From the NCBI GenBank assembly GCA_003576755.1, contig QEVT01000001.1:641-64640 (forward strand): a stretch of DNA of 64,000 bases, read 5' to 3'. Under the pieces are notes generated by a model that was given only the letters and a program-made list of their open reading frames with translations, did no database searches and was not told where the DNA came from. Made by a program: the position numbers and the translations under genes. Positions within the stretch are counted from its first letter, which is position 1. Each line of letters opens with the position of its first letter. Origin of the DNA: a bacterium. GTDB lineage: Bacteria; Chloroflexota; Anaerolineae; Epilineales; Epilineaceae. This document shows, in pieces, positions 1,196-25,712 of the stretch.

Positions 1196-1225
1196 GCGGG
1201 CGCGGCGCGGGAACTTTTCTGCGCC
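1196..1225 (-). promoter_or_regulatory. Hairpin in the trpS 5' leader (9-bp GC stem gcgcggcgc / gcgccgcgc, 12-nt loop)
   Basis: Inverted repeat read directly; it lies about 100 nt upstream of the trpS start, in the divergent trpS-prsW intergenic region. Confidence 0.3.
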
Positions 1226-1411
1226 GCGCGTGTATTCTCAAGCGTTGACGCCGATGTCGTCGTCTGGAGTCCACTTGCCGACAAGATCGCCGATGCGTGC
1301 CATCGAGTGCCGACGCGCCGGTCGTCGCGGGTCCCGCGCGCCGCGGGCGGCGACAGGCATCCCTGCGGGGGTGCCTGTTCGTCGTGCGCCGGCGCGAAGG
1401 TTCGGCGCGGC

Positions 1412-2593
1412 ATGACCTGGCTGACGGCGTCGTTCCTGGTGCCCGTGGCCGTCAGCGTCGGCGTCCCGGCGGCGTTCCTGTACTTCGTCCGACGGCTGGA
1501 CCTTTACGCGTCCGGCGGGTTCGCGCTCGTCGTCGGGTGCTTCGTCGCCGGGCTCCTGGCCTTTCCGCTGTCGTTCGCCGCCAACACCGGCGCCCTGCGG
1601 CTCATGACGCTGGGCTGGGGCCTCAGCACGGCCGTCGCCCTCCTCGCGGTCAAGACCAGCGTGGCGCCGCTCGTCGAGGAGGTCGCCAAGTCGCTCGGGC
1701 TGGTCTACGCGGTCCGGCGACCCGACTTCACGTACTTCGTCGACGGCGCCATCTTCGGCTTTGCCGCCGGGACGGCCTTCGCCATCATCGAGAACCTCTT
1801 CTACCTCGGCAACGCGCGCGATCCCCTCGGCATGGCCGTCAACCGGGCCTTCAGCACGTCGCTGATGCACGGCACGGCGAGCGCCCTGGTCGGCGTCGCG
1901 CTCGGCCGGCTGCGGTTCGGGCACGGGCGGCAGCGTTTCGCGGCCCTCCTCGTCGGCTGGGCGTCGGCGATGGCGCTGCACATGGCGTTCAACCGGCTGG
2001 TCAACAGCGGGCCGCTGACGCCGGCCCACCTCGCGGGGGCCATCGCCATCGGGATCGGCGGGGTGGTCTTGACCGCCGCCTGCATCTTCTGGGGCCTGCG
2101 CGAGGAGCGCGCGTGGCTGCGCGAGACGCTGGGGCTCGGCGTCGGCGTGTCGGCCGGCGAGGCCAACGTCGTCCACCGCATGGCCGACATCGACACGCTG
2201 CTGGCCCCGATCGAACAGCACTTCGGCGCCGAGCGGCGCAAGCAGGTGCAGCGCTTCCTGCAGCTCCAGGCCCAGCTCGGCCTGAAGACCAAGGGGGCGG
2301 CGCTGGCCGCCGACCCCAAGCTGCGGGCCGCGCTCGAGGCCCAGGTCGCCGACCTGCAGGCGCAAACCGACGCCCTGCGCCGCGCCGTCGGGCTATACTG
2401 CATGTCGTACGTCCGATCGATCCTGCCGGACGAGGGCGAGCCGCTGTGGGATCGCCTCAACACCGCGCTGGCCCAGGCGGGCACCGCCGAGCCGAGCATG
2501 AACCTGTGGCAGTCCCTGGCGGACCGGACCGGCTCCGGCGCGACCGACGCCGGATCGGGGCCAACCCTGCCCGACCCGCGGCCCGAAGCCTGA
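1412..2593 (+). CDS. PrsW-family intramembrane protease with a C-terminal coiled-coil extension
   Basis: Multi-TM N-terminal half with PrsW-like motifs (FAAGTAFAIIENLFY, HGTASALVG). It is the 3' portion of the long 35..2593 ORF, starting at MTWLTASF. Confidence 0.7.
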   Translation: MTWLTASFLVPVAVSVGVPAAFLYFVRRLDLYASGGFALVVGCFVAGLLAFPLSFAANTGALRLMTLGWGLSTAVALLAVKTSVAPLVEEVAKSLGLVYAVRRPDFTYFVDGAIFGFAAGTAFAIIENLFYLGNARDPLGMAVNRAFSTSLMHGTASALVGVALGRLRFGHGRQRFAALLVGWASAMALHMAFNRLVNSGPLTPAHLAGAIAIGIGGVVLTAACIFWGLREERAWLRETLGLGVGVSAGEANVVHRMADIDTLLAPIEQHFGAERRKQVQRFLQLQAQLGLKTKGAALAADPKLRAALEAQVADLQAQTDALRRAVGLYCMSYVRSILPDEGEPLWDRLNTALAQAGTAEPSMNLWQSLADRTGSGATDAGSGPTLPDPRPEA

Positions 2594-2631: not shown

Positions 2632-3387
2632 ATGGCGCGCATCGTCTCGGTCCACTCGTTCCGCGGGGGGACCGGCAAGTCCAACATCACCGCCAGCCTG
2701 GCCACCGACGTGGCCAGGCGCGGCCACCGGGTCGGGATCGTCGACACCGACATCCAGTCGCCGGGCATCCACGTCCTCTTCGGCATGGAGGAGCAGCGCA
2801 TCACCCACGCCCTCAACGACTACCTGTGGGGGCGGTGCGCGATCGAGCAGGCCGCCTACCCCGTCGACCTCGAGGCGGTGGCGGGCAAGCTGTACCTCAT
2901 CCCGTCGAGCCTCAAGACCGGCGAGATCGCGCGCGTCCTGCGGGAGGGGTACGACGTCACGCTGCTCAACGACGGGTTCCGCGACCTCATCGACCGCCTC
3001 GCGCTGGACTACCTGTTCATCGACACGCATCCCGGCCTCAACGAGGAGACGCTGCTCTCGATCGCCATCAGCGACGTCCTGTTCATCGTCATGCGGCCGG
3101 ACCGGCAGGACTACCAGGGCACCGGCGTGACCGTCGAGGTGGCGCGCAAGCTCGACGTGCCGCACCTCTACGTCGTCGTCAACAAGGTGTTGCCGTCCTT
3201 CGACTTCGACGCGGTCCGCCGGGAGGTCGGGCAGACCTACCAGGCCGAGGTGATCGCCGTGCTGCCGCAATGCGACGAGATGATGCAGCTGGCCAGCGCC
3301 GGGGTCTTCGTGTTGGCCTACCCGGATCACCCGCTGACCCGCTCGTTGGCCACGATGGCCGACGCCGTGGTCGCCCTTCGCGACTGA
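2632..3387 (+). CDS. MinD/ParA-family P-loop ATPase
   Basis: Deviant Walker A motif SFRGGTGKS near the N-terminus and a MinD-like fold. GAGGAG RBS at 2617-2622. ATG at 2632 lies in the 1297..3387 frame. Confidence 0.8.
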   Translation: MARIVSVHSFRGGTGKSNITASLATDVARRGHRVGIVDTDIQSPGIHVLFGMEEQRITHALNDYLWGRCAIEQAAYPVDLEAVAGKLYLIPSSLKTGEIARVLREGYDVTLLNDGFRDLIDRLALDYLFIDTHPGLNEETLLSIAISDVLFIVMRPDRQDYQGTGVTVEVARKLDVPHLYVVVNKVLPSFDFDAVRREVGQTYQAEVIAVLPQCDEMMQLASAGVFVLAYPDHPLTRSLATMADAVVALRD

Positions 3388-3479
3388 GCCGCCGGCGGCG
3401 CCCGGCCGGCGGGCGCGGCGGGGCGCGCCCGCGACGGTTCGCCGCACCGTTCGTTCGCACGCTGATTGGGAGGCGATGC

Positions 3480-3692
3480 ATGCGCTGTCACAAATGCCGG
3501 GGCGAGCCGATCGGCATCTGCCAGTTCTGTGGCCGGGCCGTGTGCGAGCGCTGCCACGGGCCCCTGCCCTTCATCCTCACGATCTTCGTCGGCAAGGACC
3601 AGATCCCCAAGGCGGTCGTGGTCGCCGACGCGCTGTGGTGCGGCGCCTGCCGGCCGCAGCCCGAGCCGCTGCCCATGCCCGAGATGGCGTGA
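3480..3692 (+). CDS. Small 4xCxxC zinc-ribbon protein (70 aa), hypothetical
   Basis: MRCHKCRG...CQFCGRAVCERCHG...CGAC gives four CxxC pairs. GGGAGG RBS at 3468-3473. It is the 3' tail of ORF 2826..3692 and sits 92 nt after the MinD-like gene. Confidence 0.5.
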   Translation: MRCHKCRGEPIGICQFCGRAVCERCHGPLPFILTIFVGKDQIPKAVVVADALWCGACRPQPEPLPMPEMA

Positions 3693-3716
3693 CGGCGCGC
3701 CAGCGAGGAGTTGACC

Positions 3717-4097
3717 ATGCCCGGCCTGTTCGACCGATTGCAGACCGAGATCGACCAGCGCGAGCGATCCGCCGGCTACTCGCCGGCCGATCTGCTGACG
3801 CTGTCCCCCGAGCTGCGCAAGCTGATCCAGACGCTGACCCGCAAGGGCGCGTCGACCACCGACGTCCTGGCGGCGGAGATCGACATGCCCGCCGCCGAGC
3901 TCGGCCCGCTCCTCGACGCGCTGATCGAGAAGGGCTTCGTCGCGGCCGTCGACGTCGCCGGCACGACGTGGTACAAGGCCGTGCTGGCCCGCCGCCGGGG
4001 ACGCGAGGTGCCGTTCAACATCTGGGAGGCGCTCCAGGAGAAGACGTCCGCCGACCCGGCGCCGCCCGATCCGCCCGCCGCGCCCGAGGGAGGCTGA
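3717..4097 (+). CDS. Hypothetical protein, possible winged-helix/HTH
   Basis: GAGGAG RBS at 3705-3710 precedes the ATG at 3717. The 'TDVLAAEIDMPAAELGPLLDALIEKGFV' segment looks HTH-like. It lies 24 nt after the previous gene. Confidence 0.5.
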   Translation: MPGLFDRLQTEIDQRERSAGYSPADLLTLSPELRKLIQTLTRKGASTTDVLAAEIDMPAAELGPLLDALIEKGFVAAVDVAGTTWYKAVLARRRGREVPFNIWEALQEKTSADPAPPDPPAAPEGG

Positions 4098-4104
4098 GGT
4101 CGCC

Positions 4105-4827
4105 ATGGACACCGATCGCCAGCGGATGCACGACCAAGTCCTCGCCCTGCCGGCGCTCGACGGCTGCTGGCAGACCATCGACCTGCCCGCCGACGCGCAC
4201 GTGTTCCACCGGGGCGACCCGGGCGACGCCCTGTACGCCGTCGTCTCCGGCACGCTCGAGGTGTATACCGCCGACGCCAACGGCCGGCGCGTCGTCCTCG
4301 AGCGGATCGGCCCCGGGCAGACCGTCGGCGAGCTGGCGCTGCTCGACGGCGGCGTGCGGTCGGCGAGCCTCGTCGCGGTGGCGCCGAGCTGCCTCAAGGT
4401 GCTGCGCCGGGACGACTTCCTGGCCACGCTGCGGCGGTCGCCCGAGCTGGCGGAGCTGACGATCGACCTGCTCAGCGCCCGGATGCGCCGCTCCGCCGAG
4501 TACCTGGCGCTCGTCACCCGTTGGTCCCGCCAGGTGGCGCGCGGCGAGTACCGCGCCGCGGAGACCGGCATCCAGGCCGCCGGCGCGGCGGCGGACGACC
4601 CGAACCTGGCGCGGTTCATCGAGACGTTCACCGAGATGGTCAGCGCGGTCCGGGCGCGCGAAGCCGAGCTGAAGCGCGAGCTGCACGAGCTGCGCATCGA
4701 GATCGACGGCCAGAAGTACCAGCGTCAGCTGAGCGAGATCACCGAGACCGAGTTCTTCCAGGACTTGCAGGTCAATGCCCGCAGAATGCGTCGGCGGGCC
4801 CACGGCGAGGCCGACCGAGACGCGTGA
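4105..4827 (+). CDS. Cyclic nucleotide-binding domain protein with C-terminal coiled coil
   Basis: cNMP-binding signature (FHRGDPGDALYAVVSGTLEV...IGPGQTVGELALLDGGVRSASLVA), followed by a heptad-rich region (ELKRELHELRIEIDGQKYQRQL). Lies 7 nt after the previous gene. Confidence 0.8.
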   Translation: MDTDRQRMHDQVLALPALDGCWQTIDLPADAHVFHRGDPGDALYAVVSGTLEVYTADANGRRVVLERIGPGQTVGELALLDGGVRSASLVAVAPSCLKVLRRDDFLATLRRSPELAELTIDLLSARMRRSAEYLALVTRWSRQVARGEYRAAETGIQAAGAAADDPNLARFIETFTEMVSAVRAREAELKRELHELRIEIDGQKYQRQLSEITETEFFQDLQVNARRMRRRAHGEADRDA

Positions 4828-4989
4828 GCGGCGGGAACTTTCGCCGCCGGCAAGGGGTATCTCCTACGCACGCGATCGCCGGCGGGCGCCGCACCGGAGC
4901 CGATCGTGGTCCGGTGCGCCAACACCGCGCAGCCCGTGATTCGCCCATCTCGAAGCGGCCCGCACGTCATTCGCCCAGGGACGGCACAC

Positions 4990-5745
4990 ATGAGCGCGAA
5001 CGAAGACAACGCCCTCACATGGCTTGAACAGCTCATGAGCGACACCACGCCGGCGTCGCGCCGGGCCGAGATCGAGGCGCGGCTGGCCGGCACGGAAGCC
5101 GGCCGACGGGCCTTGGCACGGGTGCAGATGCTGCGGCTGGAGCCGCCTGCCGACGACGTCGACGTCGAGACCACCGTCATGGCGCGCCTGCCGGACGGCC
5201 CCCTGGCCTTGTATCGCGACATGGCGGCGGTGGTGGTCCGTGCCTGGGCCGACCCGGCGTTCCGCGAGGTGTTGCGCCGCGATCCGCGGGCCACGCTGGC
5301 CGCCGAAGGCGTGGCCCTGCCCCCCGGCGTCGCGATCCGTGTCGTCGGCGCGACCGAGGCCGGGCTGCCCGGGCCCGCGGAGGTCACCCTCCCGCTCCCG
5401 GCGGCCGCGCAGCGCGCCATCGCGGCCGACGAGGCCGTCCGCCGGTTGCGCCGCACGCCCTTCGGCTGGATCTGGGGAGTGCCGTGGGCCGCTCCGGCGC
5501 CCACCGAAGCCGGTGCGTCGTTTGCGGATCGGGTGCGGGCATGGCTTGCCAGGCCCAGGGGCGTGGCGCTGGCCTTGGCCGGCACGGCGGCGGCCATCGC
5601 CATCTGGGTCGCGACGCGGACCCCGGGGGCGGGACCGGTGTCTGGCACGGCGGCGGGCGACGGCGCGCTTGGCCCGGCCGCCGCCGCGGCCGTCGTGCTC
5701 GCCCTCGTCGCCGGGGCGGCGTACTGGGCCCACCGCCGGGGATAG
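4990..5745 (+). CDS. Membrane protein containing an NHLP (nitrile-hydratase-leader-peptide)-like domain
   Basis: Internal segment MAAVVVRAWADPAFREVLRRDPRATLAAEGVALPPGVAIRVV matches the NHLP/Nif11 leader family pattern. C-terminus has two hydrophobic helices. Start chosen at MSANEDN (ATG 4990); an alternative ATG is at 5179. Confidence 0.55.
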   Translation: MSANEDNALTWLEQLMSDTTPASRRAEIEARLAGTEAGRRALARVQMLRLEPPADDVDVETTVMARLPDGPLALYRDMAAVVVRAWADPAFREVLRRDPRATLAAEGVALPPGVAIRVVGATEAGLPGPAEVTLPLPAAAQRAIAADEAVRRLRRTPFGWIWGVPWAAPAPTEAGASFADRVRAWLARPRGVALALAGTAAAIAIWVATRTPGAGPVSGTAAGDGALGPAAAAAVVLALVAGAAYWAHRRG

Positions 5746-5845: not shown

Positions 5846-6412
5846 ATGAAGGGCGAGGACCCAACCGACCAGGCGGTGGTGTCGGCGGTGATGGCGGGGG
5901 ATCGCGACGTTTTCGCCGTGCTGGTGCAGCGCCATCAACGACGGATCTACCACGCGCTTTGGCGCATGTGCGGCGACGCCGAGGAGGCCGAGGAGCTGAC
6001 TCAGGGCGCGTTCGTGCGCGCGTACTTCGCCTTGGGCAGCTACAAGCCCGAGTACCCGTTCTCGACGTGGTTGTTCCGGATCGCCTACCACCTGTTTCTC
6101 AACGAACGGCGCGACCACCGCCGCGAGGTCGGGTTCGACGACGGTGGGGACGCCGACGACGACCCCGCGCAGCGGGTCGAAGACCCCGCCGCGCCGCCGC
6201 ACGCCCTGGTCGAGGCACGCGACCTGCGCCGAACCGTCTGGCAAGCCGTGACGGCGCTGCCCGAGGACTACCGAACGGTCATCGTCCTGCGGCACATGCA
6301 GGAGCTGTCGTACGCCGAGATCTGCGAGATCACCGGGCTGCCGGTGGGCACCGTCAAGAGCCGCCTGGCGCGGGCCCGGCACCAGCTCGCGGGGCTGCTG
6401 GAAGCGGACTGA
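5846..6412 (+). CDS. ECF-type RNA polymerase sigma-70 factor
   Basis: Sigma-70 region 2 (YHALWRMCGDAEEAEELTQGAFVRAY) and region 4 (LSYAEICEITGLPVGTVKSRLARARHQL). ATG at 5846. Confidence 0.85.
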   Translation: MKGEDPTDQAVVSAVMAGDRDVFAVLVQRHQRRIYHALWRMCGDAEEAEELTQGAFVRAYFALGSYKPEYPFSTWLFRIAYHLFLNERRDHRREVGFDDGGDADDDPAQRVEDPAAPPHALVEARDLRRTVWQAVTALPEDYRTVIVLRHMQELSYAEICEITGLPVGTVKSRLARARHQLAGLLEAD

Positions 6413-6722: not shown

Positions 6723-9560
<2,838 letters not shown>

Positions 9561-9569
9561 GGACCCCGA

Positions 9570-10934
9570 TCAGTCGGGCTCCCCGCCCTCGGCCGCCACA
9601 TGGTGGTAGACCTCGTAGACGCTGGCGTTCTGGAAACGATAGCCCTGCCCGCGCAGGCTCTCGATGTGCTGGAACGACGAGCTCGGCGCATCGACCTCCT
9701 TGCGCAGCCGGCTGATCGTCTTCTGGATCATGGCGTCGGTCACCCCGAGGGTGTCGAGCGCGTACTCCGGCCAGACGGCAGCGGCGATGTCGTCCTTGCT
9801 GACGACCTCGCCCGACTTCGTGAGCAGGAAGCGCAGGAGCGCGAACTCCTTCGGAGGCAGCTCGACGGCCTGGCGCTCGATGCGCACGGCGCCGGTGTCG
9901 GGGTTGAGCTCGATGCGCGGGATCTGGCGGCGTACGTAGTCCGCGAACGCGCTCGAGAAGACGCGCCCGGCGACGAGGTAGCCGCGCCGCTCGAGCACGG
10001 GCCGCGCCTGGTTGAACGCCAGGGCGTCGCGCCCTTCCGGCGCGGCGCCCACCGCCAGCCAGGCCAGCGCGTCGCGCTCGGCCACCGGCAGCTTGTGCCA
10101 CGTGTCCTCGAAGTGCGGCGCGTTGCGGACCGCGAAGGCGCGGCCGGCTTCTTCCACCTGGTCCGCGCTGCCGGTCAGCGGCTCGCGCTGTGCGATCTCG
10201 TGGAAGATGGCGGCGGCGACCTGGAGGTAGAACGGGAACCGCCCGGCGAGGTCGTCGATGGCGGCGCGGACCGGCGTGAAGTCCACACCGGCGATCTCGC
10301 CGGTCCGCGCCAGGAAGGCGTTGACCTCTGCGGCGGTGAACGAGCCGATATAGATGTTGCGGAACATGTTGAAGAACGGTGATCCCGTGCCCCACTCTTC
10401 GCGGAACTCTCCGAGCTCCACTCGGGTGGCGACCACGATCGACAGGTCGTACTCGATGATCAGGCCGCGGTACCACTCCCAGAAGCTCGCCTTGAAGTCC
10501 GCCAGCACCTCGAACTCGTCCATCAGCATCACCAGCCGCAGGCCACGCCCGCCGAGGTCCTCGAGGTAGTCCTCGATGCCGAACTGGTCGACGTCGTCCT
10601 CGATGTCGATCTCGGCCTCGGGGTCCGCGCGTTTGATGGCGCGGGCCACGCGGCGGAAGAAGGCGTCCGGTCCCTCGGCGGCCAATTGGGCGTTGACGAA
10701 GGCGAAGACCAGGCGCGCGTCCTCGGCGGCCGGCAGGTGCCGCGCCCGCACGTCGGGGTGCATGAGCTGGTAGAGCAGGCTGGTGTTGCCGCAGCGGTGC
10801 TCACCGACCAGGGCAACCGGCTGCATGTTGGCGATGGACTCGAACAGCTCGCGCAGGGCGTCTCCCCGGCCGTGGAAGTCCGCGGGATCCTTGATCGGTT
10901 TGCCGAGCACGAACGGGTTGCGGCGAGCGGTCAT
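9570..10934 (-). CDS. P-loop (AAA-type) ATPase fused to a C-terminal OmpR/PhoB-type winged-helix DNA-binding domain
   Basis: N-terminal ATPase with Walker-A-like VALVGEHRCGNTSLLY and Walker B VMLMDEFE. C-terminus has a trans_reg_C-like region (ELPPKEFALLRFLLTKSGEVVSKDDI...RLRKEV...GYRF). GAGGAG RBS 8 nt upstream. Confidence 0.8.
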   Translation of the reverse strand: MTARRNPFVLGKPIKDPADFHGRGDALRELFESIANMQPVALVGEHRCGNTSLLYQLMHPDVRARHLPAAEDARLVFAFVNAQLAAEGPDAFFRRVARAIKRADPEAEIDIEDDVDQFGIEDYLEDLGGRGLRLVMLMDEFEVLADFKASFWEWYRGLIIEYDLSIVVATRVELGEFREEWGTGSPFFNMFRNIYIGSFTAAEVNAFLARTGEIAGVDFTPVRAAIDDLAGRFPFYLQVAAAIFHEIAQREPLTGSADQVEEAGRAFAVRNAPHFEDTWHKLPVAERDALAWLAVGAAPEGRDALAFNQARPVLERRGYLVAGRVFSSAFADYVRRQIPRIELNPDTGAVRIERQAVELPPKEFALLRFLLTKSGEVVSKDDIAAAVWPEYALDTLGVTDAMIQKTISRLRKEVDAPSSSFQHIESLRGQGYRFQNASVYEVYHHVAAEGGEPD

Positions 10935-24926: not shown

Positions 24927-25712
24927 ATGGCGCGGCCGCCGGTAGCCGCTGAGCCCATGGCCGCCTTTCCACCCTTCCCTCCCGACACCGATGCTGGCGG
25001 CGTCGCCGGGCGCCTCGCGGCGGTCCCGTTCTTCGCGGCGCTCTCGGCGACCGAGCTCGCCGCCATCGCGCCGTGCTTCGCGTACCGTGCATGCGCCGCG
25101 CACGACGTGCTCTTCTTCGAAGGCGAGCCGCCGCACCGGCTGTACGTCGTCCTCGACGGGTTCTTCAAGCAGGTCAAGCACGCCGACGACGGCCGCGATG
25201 TCATCCTGCACATCGCCATGGCAGGCGACCTCGTCGGCGGGGTGGCCGCCTTCGGCCGGCGCCCCCATCCGTTTACGGCGCGGGCCATGACGCCGAGCGC
25301 GGTGCTCGCGGTGGCCGGCGCAGCGTTCGCGCAGATCATGGAGCGGCACCCCAGCGTGGCGCGGCGTACCGTCGACGACCTGAGCGCGCGCCTCATCGAC
25401 GCCCACGAAGACCTCAAGAGCCTTGCCGTCGAGCGGGTCGACCGCCGGATCGCCCGCCACCTGCTTCGCCTGGCGGCGCAGGCCGGGCGGCCGGTGCCGG
25501 GCGGCACCGCCATCGGGATGCCACTCACCCGCCAGGACGTGGCCGACATGGCGGGCACGACCGTCGAGACAGCCATCCGCGTGCTGAGCCGCTGGCGCCG
25601 GGAAGGGATGGTCGTCACGGCCGGCGGCTGCCTGGTCATCGCCGACCGCGCCGCGCTGGAGGCCGCCGCGGACATGACCGCCGTCATGGCGGCCGGCCGC
25701 CCGGCCGGCTAG
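24927..25712 (+). CDS. Crp/Fnr-family transcriptional regulator
   Basis: N-terminal cNMP-binding-like beta-roll (LFFEGEPPHRLYVVLDGFFK) and a C-terminal HTH (LTRQDVADMAGTTVETAIRVLSRW). Confidence 0.75.
   Translation: MARPPVAAEPMAAFPPFPPDTDAGGVAGRLAAVPFFAALSATELAAIAPCFAYRACAAHDVLFFEGEPPHRLYVVLDGFFKQVKHADDGRDVILHIAMAGDLVGGVAAFGRRPHPFTARAMTPSAVLAVAGAAFAQIMERHPSVARRTVDDLSARLIDAHEDLKSLAVERVDRRIARHLLRLAAQAGRPVPGGTAIGMPLTRQDVADMAGTTVETAIRVLSRWRREGMVVTAGGCLVIADRAALEAAADMTAVMAAGRPAG

What the first reader, a model, noticed from the sequence alone, without database searches (positions are those of the whole stretch)
2632..4827. Operon-like module: MinD/ParA ATPase, 4xCxxC mini-protein, wHTH protein, cNMP-binding coiled-coil protein
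Four co-directional genes sit with 92-, 24- and 7-nt gaps, each with its own Shine-Dalgarno. The components are a deviant-Walker-A MinD/ParA ATPase, a 70-aa double zinc ribbon, a small HTH-like protein, and a cyclic-nucleotide-binding protein with a long C-terminal coiled coil. Upstream is a PrsW-type intramembrane protease. Downstream are an NHLP-like membrane protein and an ECF sigma factor. The ParA/MinD ATPase with small partner proteins plus a second-messenger receptor looks like a cyclic-nucleotide-regulated positioning or switch system. It does not correspond to a module I can name.
Basis: partly seen in the sequence, partly recalled or inferred. Interest (0 to 1): 0.6.

Follow-up and report, generated by a model that had tools for sequence, protein, structure and literature searches.

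The report
Sensor-coupled MinD-like ATPase signalling module
The four genes are real and stay together across many Chloroflexota genomes; they are one variant of a very large, unstudied gene module of Chloroflexota and Cyanobacteria in which a MinD-type ATPase is paired with a small winged-helix protein and with sensor proteins that all end in the same unannotated tail, which may be a new way for bacteria to relay signals.

Summary
Four co-directional genes sit at 2632-4827 with gaps of 92, 24 and 7 nt and their own ribosome-binding sites, and public gene calls on the same DNA agree. Neither small protein is an artefact. The 70-aa zinc protein has about 600 fixed-length relatives. The 126-aa protein models as a winged helix.

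Synteny holds. PrsW, MinD-like, Zn, wHTH and cNMP genes occur in the window's order in four other genomes, and in a different order in Anaerolineales.

The main new result concerns the cNMP protein. Its C-terminal 110 residues are a mobile module also found at the end of Cache, GAF, CHASE, receiver and other sensor proteins. These have almost no other output domain and are encoded next to MinD-like genes. MinD-wHTH fusions also exist.

A GGGAAC...GTAT promoter-like motif marks two units, prsW-to-cNMP and membrane protein plus ECF sigma.

My best reading is a sensor to MinD-type ATPase switch to winged-helix relay, coupled here to cAMP and to PrsW/ECF-sigma proteolysis. A cargo-positioning role is the main rival. 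No interaction has been shown, and I found no description in the literature.

The parts
1209..1235 (+). Promoter-like element P1 (GGGAACTTT-N14-GTAT), 177 nt upstream of the prsW start codon
   Evidence: GGGAACTTT occurs only twice in 64 kb (0.04 expected), and both copies are followed by GTAT. The same motif sits upstream of prsW in L004 and L170. An AAC-containing -35 element is typical of ECF sigma promoters (my own knowledge).
1412..2593 (+). PrsW-family intramembrane protease (393 aa) with a conserved cytoplasmic C-terminal domain of about 150 aa
   Evidence: Pfam PrsW-protease, 84.7 bits. Present in 20/29 Zn-gene loci. The C-terminal domain is conserved among cluster-associated PrsW proteins. 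Gene call.
2632..3387 (+). MinD-like P-loop ATPase (251 aa). Walker A is FRGGTGKS, with Arg in place of the signature Lys. There is no C-terminal membrane-targeting helix.
   Evidence: Relatives are 60-86% identical in Chloroflexota and Cyanobacteria. The best solved relative is archaeal MinD 1HYQ (E 2.7e-21, full length).
3480..3692 (+). 70-aa protein with two predicted zinc sites (C3, C6, C14, C17, C22, C/H25, C54, C57) and a conserved PQPEPxxMPE tail
   Evidence: 603 clusters of 70-71 aa, with only borderline C5HCH/B-box-like hits. AF2 pLDDT 83.5 and no PDB fold match. Always adjacent to the wHTH gene (29/29).
3717..4097 (+). Winged-helix protein (126 aa). It has an N-terminal GLFDRLQxEI helix, a wHTH core, a basic disordered linker and a C-terminal IWxxLQ helix.
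   Evidence: AF2 pLDDT 82. Foldseek finds ArsR/SmtB/MarR-type wHTH proteins. Family alignment. Fused to MinD-like proteins in 7 loci.
4105..4827 (+). cNMP-binding domain (residues about 27-111) followed by a HAMP-like region and the conserved tail ELRIEID...EITETEFFQDLQ ('cC' module, residues 126-240)
   Evidence: Pfam cNMP_binding, 82 bits. The phosphate-binding cassette GE(L/M)(A/S)(L/I)...RS(A/L) is kept in 21/21 orthologues. The cC module has 1122 representatives and is almost always C-terminal. Architectures.
4833..4860 (+). Promoter-like element P2 (GGGAACTTT-N15-GTAT), 6 nt after the cNMP gene's stop codon
   Evidence: The same position is occupied in L004 and L170.
4990..5745 (+). 251-aa membrane protein with a sub-threshold NHLP-like segment. 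It is a candidate anti-sigma factor or PrsW substrate (inferred).
   Evidence: A homologue sits at the same place in L004. In Anaerolineales an unrelated 150-190-aa single-pass protein lies between the ECF sigma and PrsW genes.
5846..6412 (+). ECF-type sigma factor (188 aa)
   Evidence: Sigma70_r2 and r4_2. An ECF sigma lies next to MinD-like genes in about 20 loci.

Best explanation
What it is. The four genes, together with prsW upstream, form one probable operon. It is a Chloroflexota-specific elaboration of a widespread three-part module of Chloroflexota and Cyanobacteria:
1. An input protein whose variable sensor domain (here a cyclic-nucleotide, probably cAMP, binding domain) is followed by a shared HAMP-like region and a 45-residue tail.
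2. An archaeal-type MinD-like ATPase.
3. A small ArsR/MarR-like winged-helix partner with short terminal helices.

Proposed mechanism (inferred).
- The ATPase is a nucleotide-dependent dimerisation switch.
- The sensor tail and the partner's terminal helices dock on the ATP-bound dimer, and ligand binding to the sensor changes the ATPase cycle.
- The cycle holds or releases the winged-helix protein, with the zinc mini-protein as its cofactor, and so changes what that protein does (DNA binding or effector control). This parallels the MinD-like FleN acting on FleQ.
- In this subtype the relay is coupled to PrsW-dependent proteolysis that frees the ECF sigma factor. The sigma factor in turn drives both transcription units from GGGAAC...GTAT promoters.

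Shown: gene linkage, fusions, domain anatomy and the promoter-like motif. Inferred: every physical contact, the direction of signal flow and the ligand.
For: Synteny with shuffled order.
- The window's order is found in L004, L170, L171 and L172.
- Anaerolineales have ECF, anti-sigma-like, PrsW, cNMP, MinD, Zn, wHTH in that order, with gaps of 9-17 nt or overlaps.

Core pair.
- 55 of 106 MinD-like genes have a wHTH gene within 400 nt or fused.
- There are 7 MinD-wHTH fusions.

Shared sensor tail.
- 59 of 106 MinD-like genes have a cC-tail gene within 3 kb.
- Searching from the tail instead, 11 of 15 loci with 3 kb or more on both flanks hold a MinD-like gene within 3 kb.
- The tail follows cNMP, dCache, GAF, CHASE2/3, receiver, Tll0287 and 4HB domains, usually after HAMP, with almost no standard output domain.

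ATPase. Catalytic residues are intact: K16, D38, D40, D131.

Partner. wHTH fold with a disordered basic linker and a terminal helix. The terminal motif is duplicated in some relatives.

Cyclic nucleotide. The binding cassette is conserved in 21/21, and class III cyclases are encoded in 21 related loci.

Promoter-like motif. It sits at both unit starts and is conserved in two other genomes.

Precedent. A MinD-type ATPase controlling a transcription factor: FleN-FleQ (PMC8528422, PMC10723142).
Against: - No interaction, ATPase effect, DNA binding or ligand binding has been shown.
- ParA/MinD ATPases are best known as positioning devices (PMC10241942).
- In at least nine loci the wHTH-plus-tail unit is embedded in a permease-like membrane protein of about 960 aa. 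There the wHTH may be a docking domain rather than a DNA binder.
- About a quarter of MinD-like genes show neither partner within range, although many contigs are short.
- The promoter-like motif is absent from L171, L172 and Anaerolineales.
- The window protein itself gives no Pfam HAMP hit.
Confidence: 0.45

Rival explanations
1. Positioning system. The MinD-like ATPase spatially organises a cargo, for example clusters of the tail-bearing sensors, PrsW or the permease-like proteins. The wHTH protein acts as the adaptor to the nucleoid or to the cargo. This would parallel ParC-ParP, PpfA-TlpT or archaeal MinD4.
For: Positioning is the family's known behaviour (PMC10241942; MinD4: bioRxiv 10.1101/2020.04.03.021790, PMC11588486). 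The closest solved relatives are archaeal MinDs. The sensors are HAMP/coiled-coil membrane proteins like chemoreceptors. The wHTH unit occurs inside polytopic membrane proteins. The basic linker plus short helix resembles the ATPase-stimulating peptides of ParB, MinE and McdB (my own knowledge).
Against: There is no membrane-targeting helix, and no DNA-binding surface has been tested. Several paralogous triads lie side by side in one locus, which fits insulated signalling lines better than cargo positioning. The soluble 240-aa cNMP receptor is an odd cargo.
Confidence: 0.3
2. Plain ECF sigma stress regulon. The genes are only co-transcribed with prsW under the ECF sigma, and the cNMP receptor and the ATPase do not work on each other.
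For: A shared promoter-like motif stands before both units. ECF sigma, an anti-sigma-like protein and PrsW are in the cluster.
Against: MinD-like, wHTH and cC-tail genes co-occur in Cyanobacteria and Chloroflexia without PrsW or an ECF sigma. MinD-wHTH fusions exist. The reciprocal anchor test is positive.
Confidence: 0.1
3. Metal-handling NTPase. A SIMIBI-class ATPase with the zinc mini-protein delivers a metal, for instance to the PrsW metalloprotease.
For: The top Pfam model is the NUBPL/Mrp-type ParA family. His8, His47, Cys69 and His133 are invariant in the family. A Cys-rich partner is present.
Against: The Zn gene is absent from most family loci (19 of 83). There is no CxxC or CxC dimer-interface motif. 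The linkage to sensors and wHTH proteins is unexplained by this reading.
Confidence: 0.05
4. DNA partition: a ParA with a small wHTH centromere-binding protein.
For: Type Ib ParA proteins pair with small DNA binders. The wHTH model also matches AspA of pNOB8 weakly. One relative is on a plasmid (L054).
Against: There are no centromere-like repeat arrays. Up to three paralogues occur per 16 kb. The location is chromosomal, next to housekeeping genes. The linkage to sensors is unexplained.
Confidence: 0.03
5. Cyclic-nucleotide anti-phage system (Pycsar-like).
For: PADLOC hits to the cNMP domain of PycTIR effectors, and cyclases nearby in relatives.
Against: The hits cover the shared domains only. 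There is no toxic effector domain. Synteny is stable across orders, and the cluster is conserved next to ligA in Anaerolineales.
Confidence: 0.02

Closest known systems
FleN (FlhG)-FleQ of Pseudomonas: a MinD-type ATPase that controls a transcription factor
   Same: A MinD-family ATPase whose ATP-dependent state regulates a DNA-binding regulator rather than cell division (PMC8528422, PMC10723142). FleN is among the solved relatives (E 1.5e-8).
   Different: The partner here is a 126-aa wHTH protein, not an AAA+ enhancer-binding protein. There is no flagellar context. The signature Lys is replaced by Arg. A dedicated family of sensors with a shared tail is linked.
Archaeal MinD proteins (A. fulgidus MinD-1, 1HYQ; H. 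volcanii MinD4/MinD2)
   Same: Best sequence match over the full length. TIGR01969 minD_arch is the best NCBIfam model (100 bits). MinD4 positions chemosensory arrays and archaella (bioRxiv 10.1101/2020.04.03.021790, PMC11588486).
   Different: The score is far below the family cut-off (201.75). The host is bacterial. R11 replaces K11. The partner genes are different.
ParC-ParP and PpfA-TlpT chemoreceptor-array positioning systems
   Same: An A/D ATPase is encoded next to HAMP/coiled-coil sensor proteins, and a partner peptide is expected to stimulate the ATPase (PMC10241942).
   Different: There are no che genes and no MCP signalling domain. The sensors end in the cC tail instead.
PrsW-RsiW-SigW regulated proteolysis of Bacillus subtilis
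   Same: A PrsW-family protease, a membrane protein and an ECF sigma lie in one cluster. References: PMC3498285, PMC10202637.
   Different: PrsW here carries a cytoplasmic domain of about 150 aa. No recognisable anti-sigma domain was found. It is co-operonic with an ATPase, a wHTH protein and a cNMP receptor.
CRP/FNR-type cyclic-nucleotide receptors
   Same: A canonical cNMP_binding domain with an intact phosphate-binding cassette.
   Different: There is no C-terminal HTH_Crp domain. It is replaced by the HAMP-like region plus cC tail.

Membership tests
ParA/MinD (deviant Walker A) ATPases | Walker A GKS/T lysine, switch I aspartates and Walker B aspartate | tested here: met
   K16, D38, D40 and D131 are invariant in 26 relatives and align to 1HYQ over the full length.
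ParA/MinD (deviant Walker A) ATPases | N-terminal 'signature' lysine (KGGxxGK[ST]) | tested here: not met
   The position is an invariant Arg (FRGGTGKS). Whether Arg does the same job is untested.
MinD proper (bacterial TIGR01968, archaeal TIGR01969) | Score above the curated cut-off | tested here: not met
   58.4 bits against 212.9, and 100.4 bits against 201.75.
MinD proper | C-terminal amphipathic membrane-targeting helix | tested here: not met
   The protein ends at residue 251. The 1HYQ alignment covers query residues 1-246, which leaves no room for an extension.
ParABS-type partition | Centromere-like repeats and a ParB or other centromere-binding partner next to parA | tested here: not met
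   Only chance-level GC-rich repeats. No ParB. The wHTH partner is of unknown specificity.
FleN/FlhG | Flagellar gene context and a FleQ/FlhF partner | tested here: not met
   Neighbours are PrsW, Zn, wHTH, cNMP and ECF genes in all loci examined.
CRP/FNR regulators | cNMP_binding domain | tested here: met
   81.9 bits against a cut-off of 27.5. Cassette GE(L/M)(A/S)(L/I)...RS(A/L) in 21/21.
CRP/FNR regulators | C-terminal HTH_Crp DNA-binding domain | tested here: not met
   No HTH hit. The CRP equivalog scores 36.7 against 266.
HAMP-containing transducers | Pfam HAMP domain before the output | tested here: inconclusive
   There is no HAMP hit in the window protein. However, its residues from about 129 onwards align with the region that holds a true HAMP in tail-bearing relatives. 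60 of 101 tail proteins have HAMP.
PrsW / ECF sigma regulated proteolysis | PrsW protease and ECF sigma in one cluster | tested here: met
PrsW / ECF sigma regulated proteolysis | Recognisable membrane anti-sigma factor as substrate | tested here: inconclusive
   The 4990-5745 product has only sub-threshold NHLP-like hits. The Anaerolineales single-pass protein has no domain hit.
ArsR/MarR-type winged-helix regulators | wHTH fold | tested here: met
   AF2 pLDDT 82 with H-H-H plus a beta-hairpin wing. Foldseek top hits are NolR, SrnR, Rv0081 and CzrA (probability 1.0, E about 1e-3).
ArsR/MarR-type winged-helix regulators | Family-level sequence match and DNA binding | tested here: not met
   Only TrmB at 15.7 bits against a cut-off of 25.6 and no PDB sequence match. 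DNA binding is not testable here.
B-box / C5HCH zinc fingers | Score above cut-off; eight Cys/His ligands | tested here: inconclusive
   The window protein gives no significant hit. Relatives score 25.9-26.3 against a cut-off of 26.3. Eight conserved ligand positions are seen. No fold match.
Pycsar or other known defence systems | Cyclase plus cNMP-activated toxic effector | tested here: not met
   PADLOC hits cover shared domains only. There is no effector domain.

The most novel reading that the evidence does not exclude
A previously unrecognised class of prokaryotic signal transduction. Many different sensors (Cache, GAF, CHASE, receiver, cNMP and others) share one C-terminal docking tail and signal through a dedicated MinD-type ATPase. 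The ATPase acts on winged-helix 'receiver' modules that are free-standing, fused to the ATPase, or built into permease-like proteins, and possibly also on PrsW proteases through a similar terminal motif. The system would run in parallel to two-component and ECF pathways in filamentous Cyanobacteria and Chloroflexota.
Probability: 0.35. Interest if true: 0.9.

Novelty: new variant of a known kind. Interest (0 to 1): 0.7.

Why it matters
The MinD-like family is large. Its members are 60-70% identical between two phyla. Despite that, the family, its wHTH partner, the zinc mini-protein and the sensor tail carry no functional annotation.

If the ATPase is the relay between modular sensors and wHTH or protease effectors, that would add a new wiring principle to bacterial signalling. 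It would also assign a role to more than a thousand 'output-less' HAMP and sensor proteins. Finally, it would extend ParA/MinD biology from positioning to signal processing.

The idea is testable in culturable hosts that carry the module: Herpetosiphon aurantiacus DSM 785, Scytonema, Nostoc and Leptolyngbya strains.

Tried and rejected
Literature:
- Five full-text searches on the gene combination found nothing relevant.
- The photoglobin paper and the A/D ATPase survey do not mention this module.

Sequence and structure searches that gave nothing:
- PDB sequence searches for the wHTH protein and the cC tail: no hits.
- Foldseek for the Zn protein: nothing below E=1.
- Rfam on the whole window: no family.
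- The 92-nt MinD-Zn gap is no more structured than shuffled sequence.
- No intrinsic terminator or sigma-70-like promoter inside the cluster.
- No centromere-like repeats.
- PADLOC: shared-domain hits only.

Specific ideas tested and dropped:
- No class III cyclase in the window by phmmer with the family found in relatives.
- The cC profile does not match the PrsW C-terminal domain (E>0.4).
- The GGGAAC...GTAT motif was not found in the ECF/MinD intergenic regions of Anaerolineales or in L171 and L172.

Full report
OBSERVATION

The window has about 72% G+C. On the + strand lie:
- a MinD/ParA-like ATPase gene (2632-3387, 251 aa)
- a 70-aa Cys-rich gene (3480-3692)
- a 126-aa gene (3717-4097)
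- a 240-aa cNMP-binding gene (4105-4827)

The gaps are 92, 24 and 7 nt. GAGGAG or GGGAGG boxes lie 6-13 nt before each ATG. Public assemblies of the same organism (MAGs GCA_026645665.1 and GCA_021463285.1) carry identical gene calls. These include PrsW (window 1412-2593), a 251-aa membrane protein (4990-5745) and a 188-aa ECF sigma (5846-6412). Pfam and NCBIfam confirm the domain assignments.

ARE THE SMALL GENES REAL?

Yes.
- The 70-aa protein has 603 clusters of relatives, all 70-71 aa and all named 'hypothetical'. C3, C6, C14, C17, C22, C54 and C57 are invariant, position 25 is Cys or His, and the tail PQPEPxxMPE is conserved.
- It reaches only the borderline of the C5HCH/B-box models. It folds confidently (pLDDT 83.5) but has no fold match in the PDB.
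- The 126-aa protein has more than 200 relatives. It models (pLDDT 82) as an N-terminal helix, a three-helix bundle with a beta-hairpin wing, a low-confidence basic linker (residues 89-101) and a short C-terminal helix (102-110).
- Foldseek places it among ArsR/SmtB/MarR-type winged-helix proteins.

SYNTENY

I analysed 80 of them plus metagenome loci.
- The family is 60-70% identical between Chloroflexota and Cyanobacteria.
- The window's exact order, PrsW, MinD-like, Zn, wHTH, cNMP and then ECF sigma further on, recurs in L004, L170 and L172, whose ATPases are 68-75% identical. L171 has the same five genes in the same order, but its contig ends before any sigma gene. Gaps are a few nucleotides or 4-nt overlaps.
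- Anaerolineales have the same genes in another order: ECF sigma, a single-pass membrane protein, PrsW, cNMP, MinD-like, Zn, wHTH. This is followed divergently by a second MinD-like/wHTH pair.
- Among 29 non-redundant loci that hold the Zn gene, the wHTH gene is adjacent in 29 and a MinD-like gene is within 1.5 kb in 29. PrsW is present in 20, a cNMP protein with the same tail in 18 and an ECF sigma in 10. Several of these contigs are truncated.

Conservation of gene content with shuffled order is the classical sign of functional linkage.

THE WIDER FAMILY

The central new finding concerns residues 126-240 of the cNMP protein (the 'cC' module). This is a HAMP-like stretch followed by ELRIEIDxxKxxxQVxEITETxYFQxLQxKAxxLR. 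It is a mobile C-terminal module.
- In the loci anchored on the ATPase, it ends proteins whose N-terminal parts are Tll0287-like, dCache_1, CHASE2, GAF, receiver or cNMP-binding domains.
- A search of 1.84 billion representatives found 1122 carriers, and the match is almost always at the extreme C-terminus.
- Of 101 carriers scanned: 60 have HAMP, 33 cNMP_binding, 10 dCache_1 and 6 GAF. Fewer have CHASE3, 4HB_MCP, receiver, PG_binding or PrsW domains. Only one has HisKA and one HD. These are sensors without a known output.
- Linkage to the ATPase is reciprocal. 59 of 106 MinD-like genes have a cC gene within 3 kb, and 81 of 106 have a cC or a wHTH gene nearby.
- Anchoring a metagenome scan on the tail instead, 11 of 15 loci with at least 3 kb on both flanks hold a MinD-like gene within 3 kb.
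- The ATPase and the wHTH protein are fused in seven loci. In the five of these I inspected, all cyanobacterial, the P-loop departs from the family's RGGTGKS, from a single Gly-to-His change to loss of the lysine.
- One locus has an apparent cNMP-cC-ATPase fusion (L066). This is a single case and could be an assembly error.
- In at least nine loci the wHTH-plus-tail unit sits inside a permease-like membrane protein of about 960 aa, next to the ATPase gene.
- Loci often hold two or three ATPase, wHTH and sensor sets side by side.

LINK TO PrsW AND THE ECF SIGMA
- The PrsW proteins of these clusters share a cytoplasmic C-terminal domain of about 150 aa. It ends in G-L-(W/F)-x-x-L-x-x-R. This resembles both the N-terminal GLFDRLQxEI helix and the C-terminal IWxxL(D/Q) helix of the wHTH proteins. 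The motif is short, so I treat the resemblance as a lead only.
- GGGAACTTT occurs only twice in the 64-kb window (0.04 expected). Both copies are on the + strand and are followed after 14-15 nt by GTAT. One lies 177 nt upstream of prsW and the other 6 nt after the stop codon of the cNMP gene.
- The same bipartite motif occupies the same two positions in L004 and L170, with a third copy before the next gene. An AAC-containing -35 box is typical of ECF sigma promoters (my own knowledge).
- No terminator, no second motif and no structured RNA lies between prsW and the end of the cNMP gene.
- The simplest reading is two units: prsW-minD-like-zn-wHTH-cNMP, and membrane protein plus ECF sigma. Both would be driven by the cluster's own sigma factor.
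- Class III cyclases are encoded in 21 related loci and next to the cluster in L004 and L172. None was found in the window.
- The cNMP phosphate-binding cassette, GE(L/M)(A/S)(L/I)...RS(A/L), is kept in 21 of 21 orthologues. In the window and most relatives it ends in RSA, which from what I know of CAP and PKA favours cAMP; five relatives have RSL instead.

THE ATPase
- It aligns over its whole length with archaeal MinD (1HYQ, E 2.7e-21). It keeps K16, D38, D40 and D131 but has Arg in place of the signature Lys11.
- The alignment leaves no room for a C-terminal membrane-targeting helix.
- It falls far below the MinD equivalog cut-offs.
- His8, His47, Trp66, Cys69 and His133 are invariant and unexplained.

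MECHANISM

Shown:
- gene linkage
- fusions
- domain anatomy
- a conserved promoter-like motif

Inferred:
- The ATPase is an ATP-dependent dimer switch.
- The sensor tail and the terminal helices of the wHTH protein (and perhaps of PrsW) bind the dimer.
- Ligand binding, here probably cAMP, alters the ATPase cycle.
- The cycle sequesters or releases the wHTH protein, with the zinc protein as its constant companion.
- In this subtype the output is tied to PrsW-dependent activation of the ECF sigma, which feeds back on both units.

The precedent is FleN acting on FleQ (PMC8528422, PMC10723142). I give this reading 0.45. The main rival, at 0.30, is a ParA/MinD-type positioning system for the sensors or membrane proteins, as in ParC-ParP, PpfA-TlpT or archaeal MinD4 (PMC10241942; bioRxiv 10.1101/2020.04.03.021790). 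The two are not exclusive. Mere co-transcription in an ECF regulon, metal delivery, DNA partition and Pycsar-like defence are less likely, for the reasons given under the rival explanations.

COMPARISON AND NOVELTY

The module works most like a MinD/ParA ATPase with partner proteins. It fails the membership tests for MinD proper, ParABS and FleN/FlhG. The cNMP protein is not a CRP-type regulator because it lacks the HTH domain.

The wHTH family, the zinc protein and the cC tail have no Pfam or NCBIfam family and no solved structure. Five literature searches found no description. Subscription-only papers could not be searched.

I file it as a new variant of a known kind: an A/D-ATPase system with new partners and a dedicated sensor family. 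I estimate a 0.35 chance that it is a categorically new signalling architecture.

Noticed in passing
window 1209-1235 and 4833-4860; L004 6802-6829, 10233-10259, 11513-11540; L170 5585-5611, 9226-9252, 10137-10164: A conserved bipartite motif, GGGAAC(W)(W)-N11-14-G(K)GTA(T/C), stands at the start of each transcription unit of the cluster in three genomes. It is probably the promoter recognised by the cluster's ECF sigma. Both window copies also sit in short GC hairpins.
   Followed up: partly
L020 631-1728, L023 6787-7851, L024 6067-7212, L032 3841-5058, L060 3084-4190, L091 957-2081, L097 4997-6124: MinD-like/wHTH fusion proteins of 354-405 aa. In the five inspected (L020, L023, L024, L032, L060) the Walker A departs from RGGTGKS (RHGTGKS, RAGTGQS, RHGLGCS, RHAAGCS). 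Each sits upstream of a canonical MinD-like gene, which suggests pseudo-ATPase partners or heterodimers.
   Followed up: partly
L162 2768-5665 (-), L139 2212-5154, and L088, L100, L107, L111, L112, L127, L137: Permease-like membrane proteins of about 950-1000 aa (weak Trp_Tyr_perm hit) carry an embedded wHTH plus the RxGRxxPxxIWxxLE motif. They are encoded next to a MinD-like gene.
   Followed up: partly
L066 1288-2808: One continuous ORF encodes a cNMP-binding domain, the cC tail and a complete MinD-like ATPase. It is either a true fusion or a lost stop codon in a MAG.
   Followed up: no
L014, L017, L019, L031, L040, L046 (Herpetosiphon and Chloroflexia): Tandem MinD-like genes. The second copy has SFRPGTGKS or is more diverged. 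They are followed by a HAMP-cC sensor and a wHTH protein whose C-terminal motif is duplicated.
   Followed up: no
window 1412-2593 (C-terminal third); L004, L015, L021, L025 and other PrsW genes: Cluster-associated PrsW proteins share a cytoplasmic domain of about 150 aa. It ends in G-L-(W/F)-x-x-L-x-x-R, which resembles the terminal helices of the wHTH proteins.
   Followed up: partly
window 2632-3387 (protein residues 8, 47, 66, 69, 133): His8, His47, Trp66, Cys69 and His133 are invariant across the MinD-like family and have no counterpart in MinD. This could be a metal or partner site.
   Followed up: no
window 4990-5745: The membrane protein between the cNMP gene and the ECF sigma has a sub-threshold nitrile-hydratase-leader-like (NHLP) segment at residues 79-123 and C-terminal hydrophobic stretches. 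It is conserved at the same place in L004 and is a candidate anti-sigma factor.
   Followed up: partly
window about 9570-10934 (-) and from about 10963 onwards (-): Downstream of the P-type cation ATPase (6723-9560) lie an nSTAND2 plus Trans_reg_C protein (454 aa) and a NACHT/HEAT protein of 1576 aa. Positions are taken from the public gene calls on the same sequence.
   Followed up: no
window 24927-25712 (+): A second ORF with a cNMP-binding domain (phmmer E 2.7e-10 to the 4105-4827 product). It lacks the cC tail.
   Followed up: no
L051 1720-3354, L072 10533-14513, L010 3765-7274 and 18 other loci; L172 2910-5159: Class III nucleotide cyclases lie next to the module in many relatives. They have tandem catalytic domains, some with AAA_16/STAND extensions, and one has GAF-PAS. 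L010 also has a TLC/HEAT membrane protein ending in a cNMP-binding domain.
   Followed up: partly
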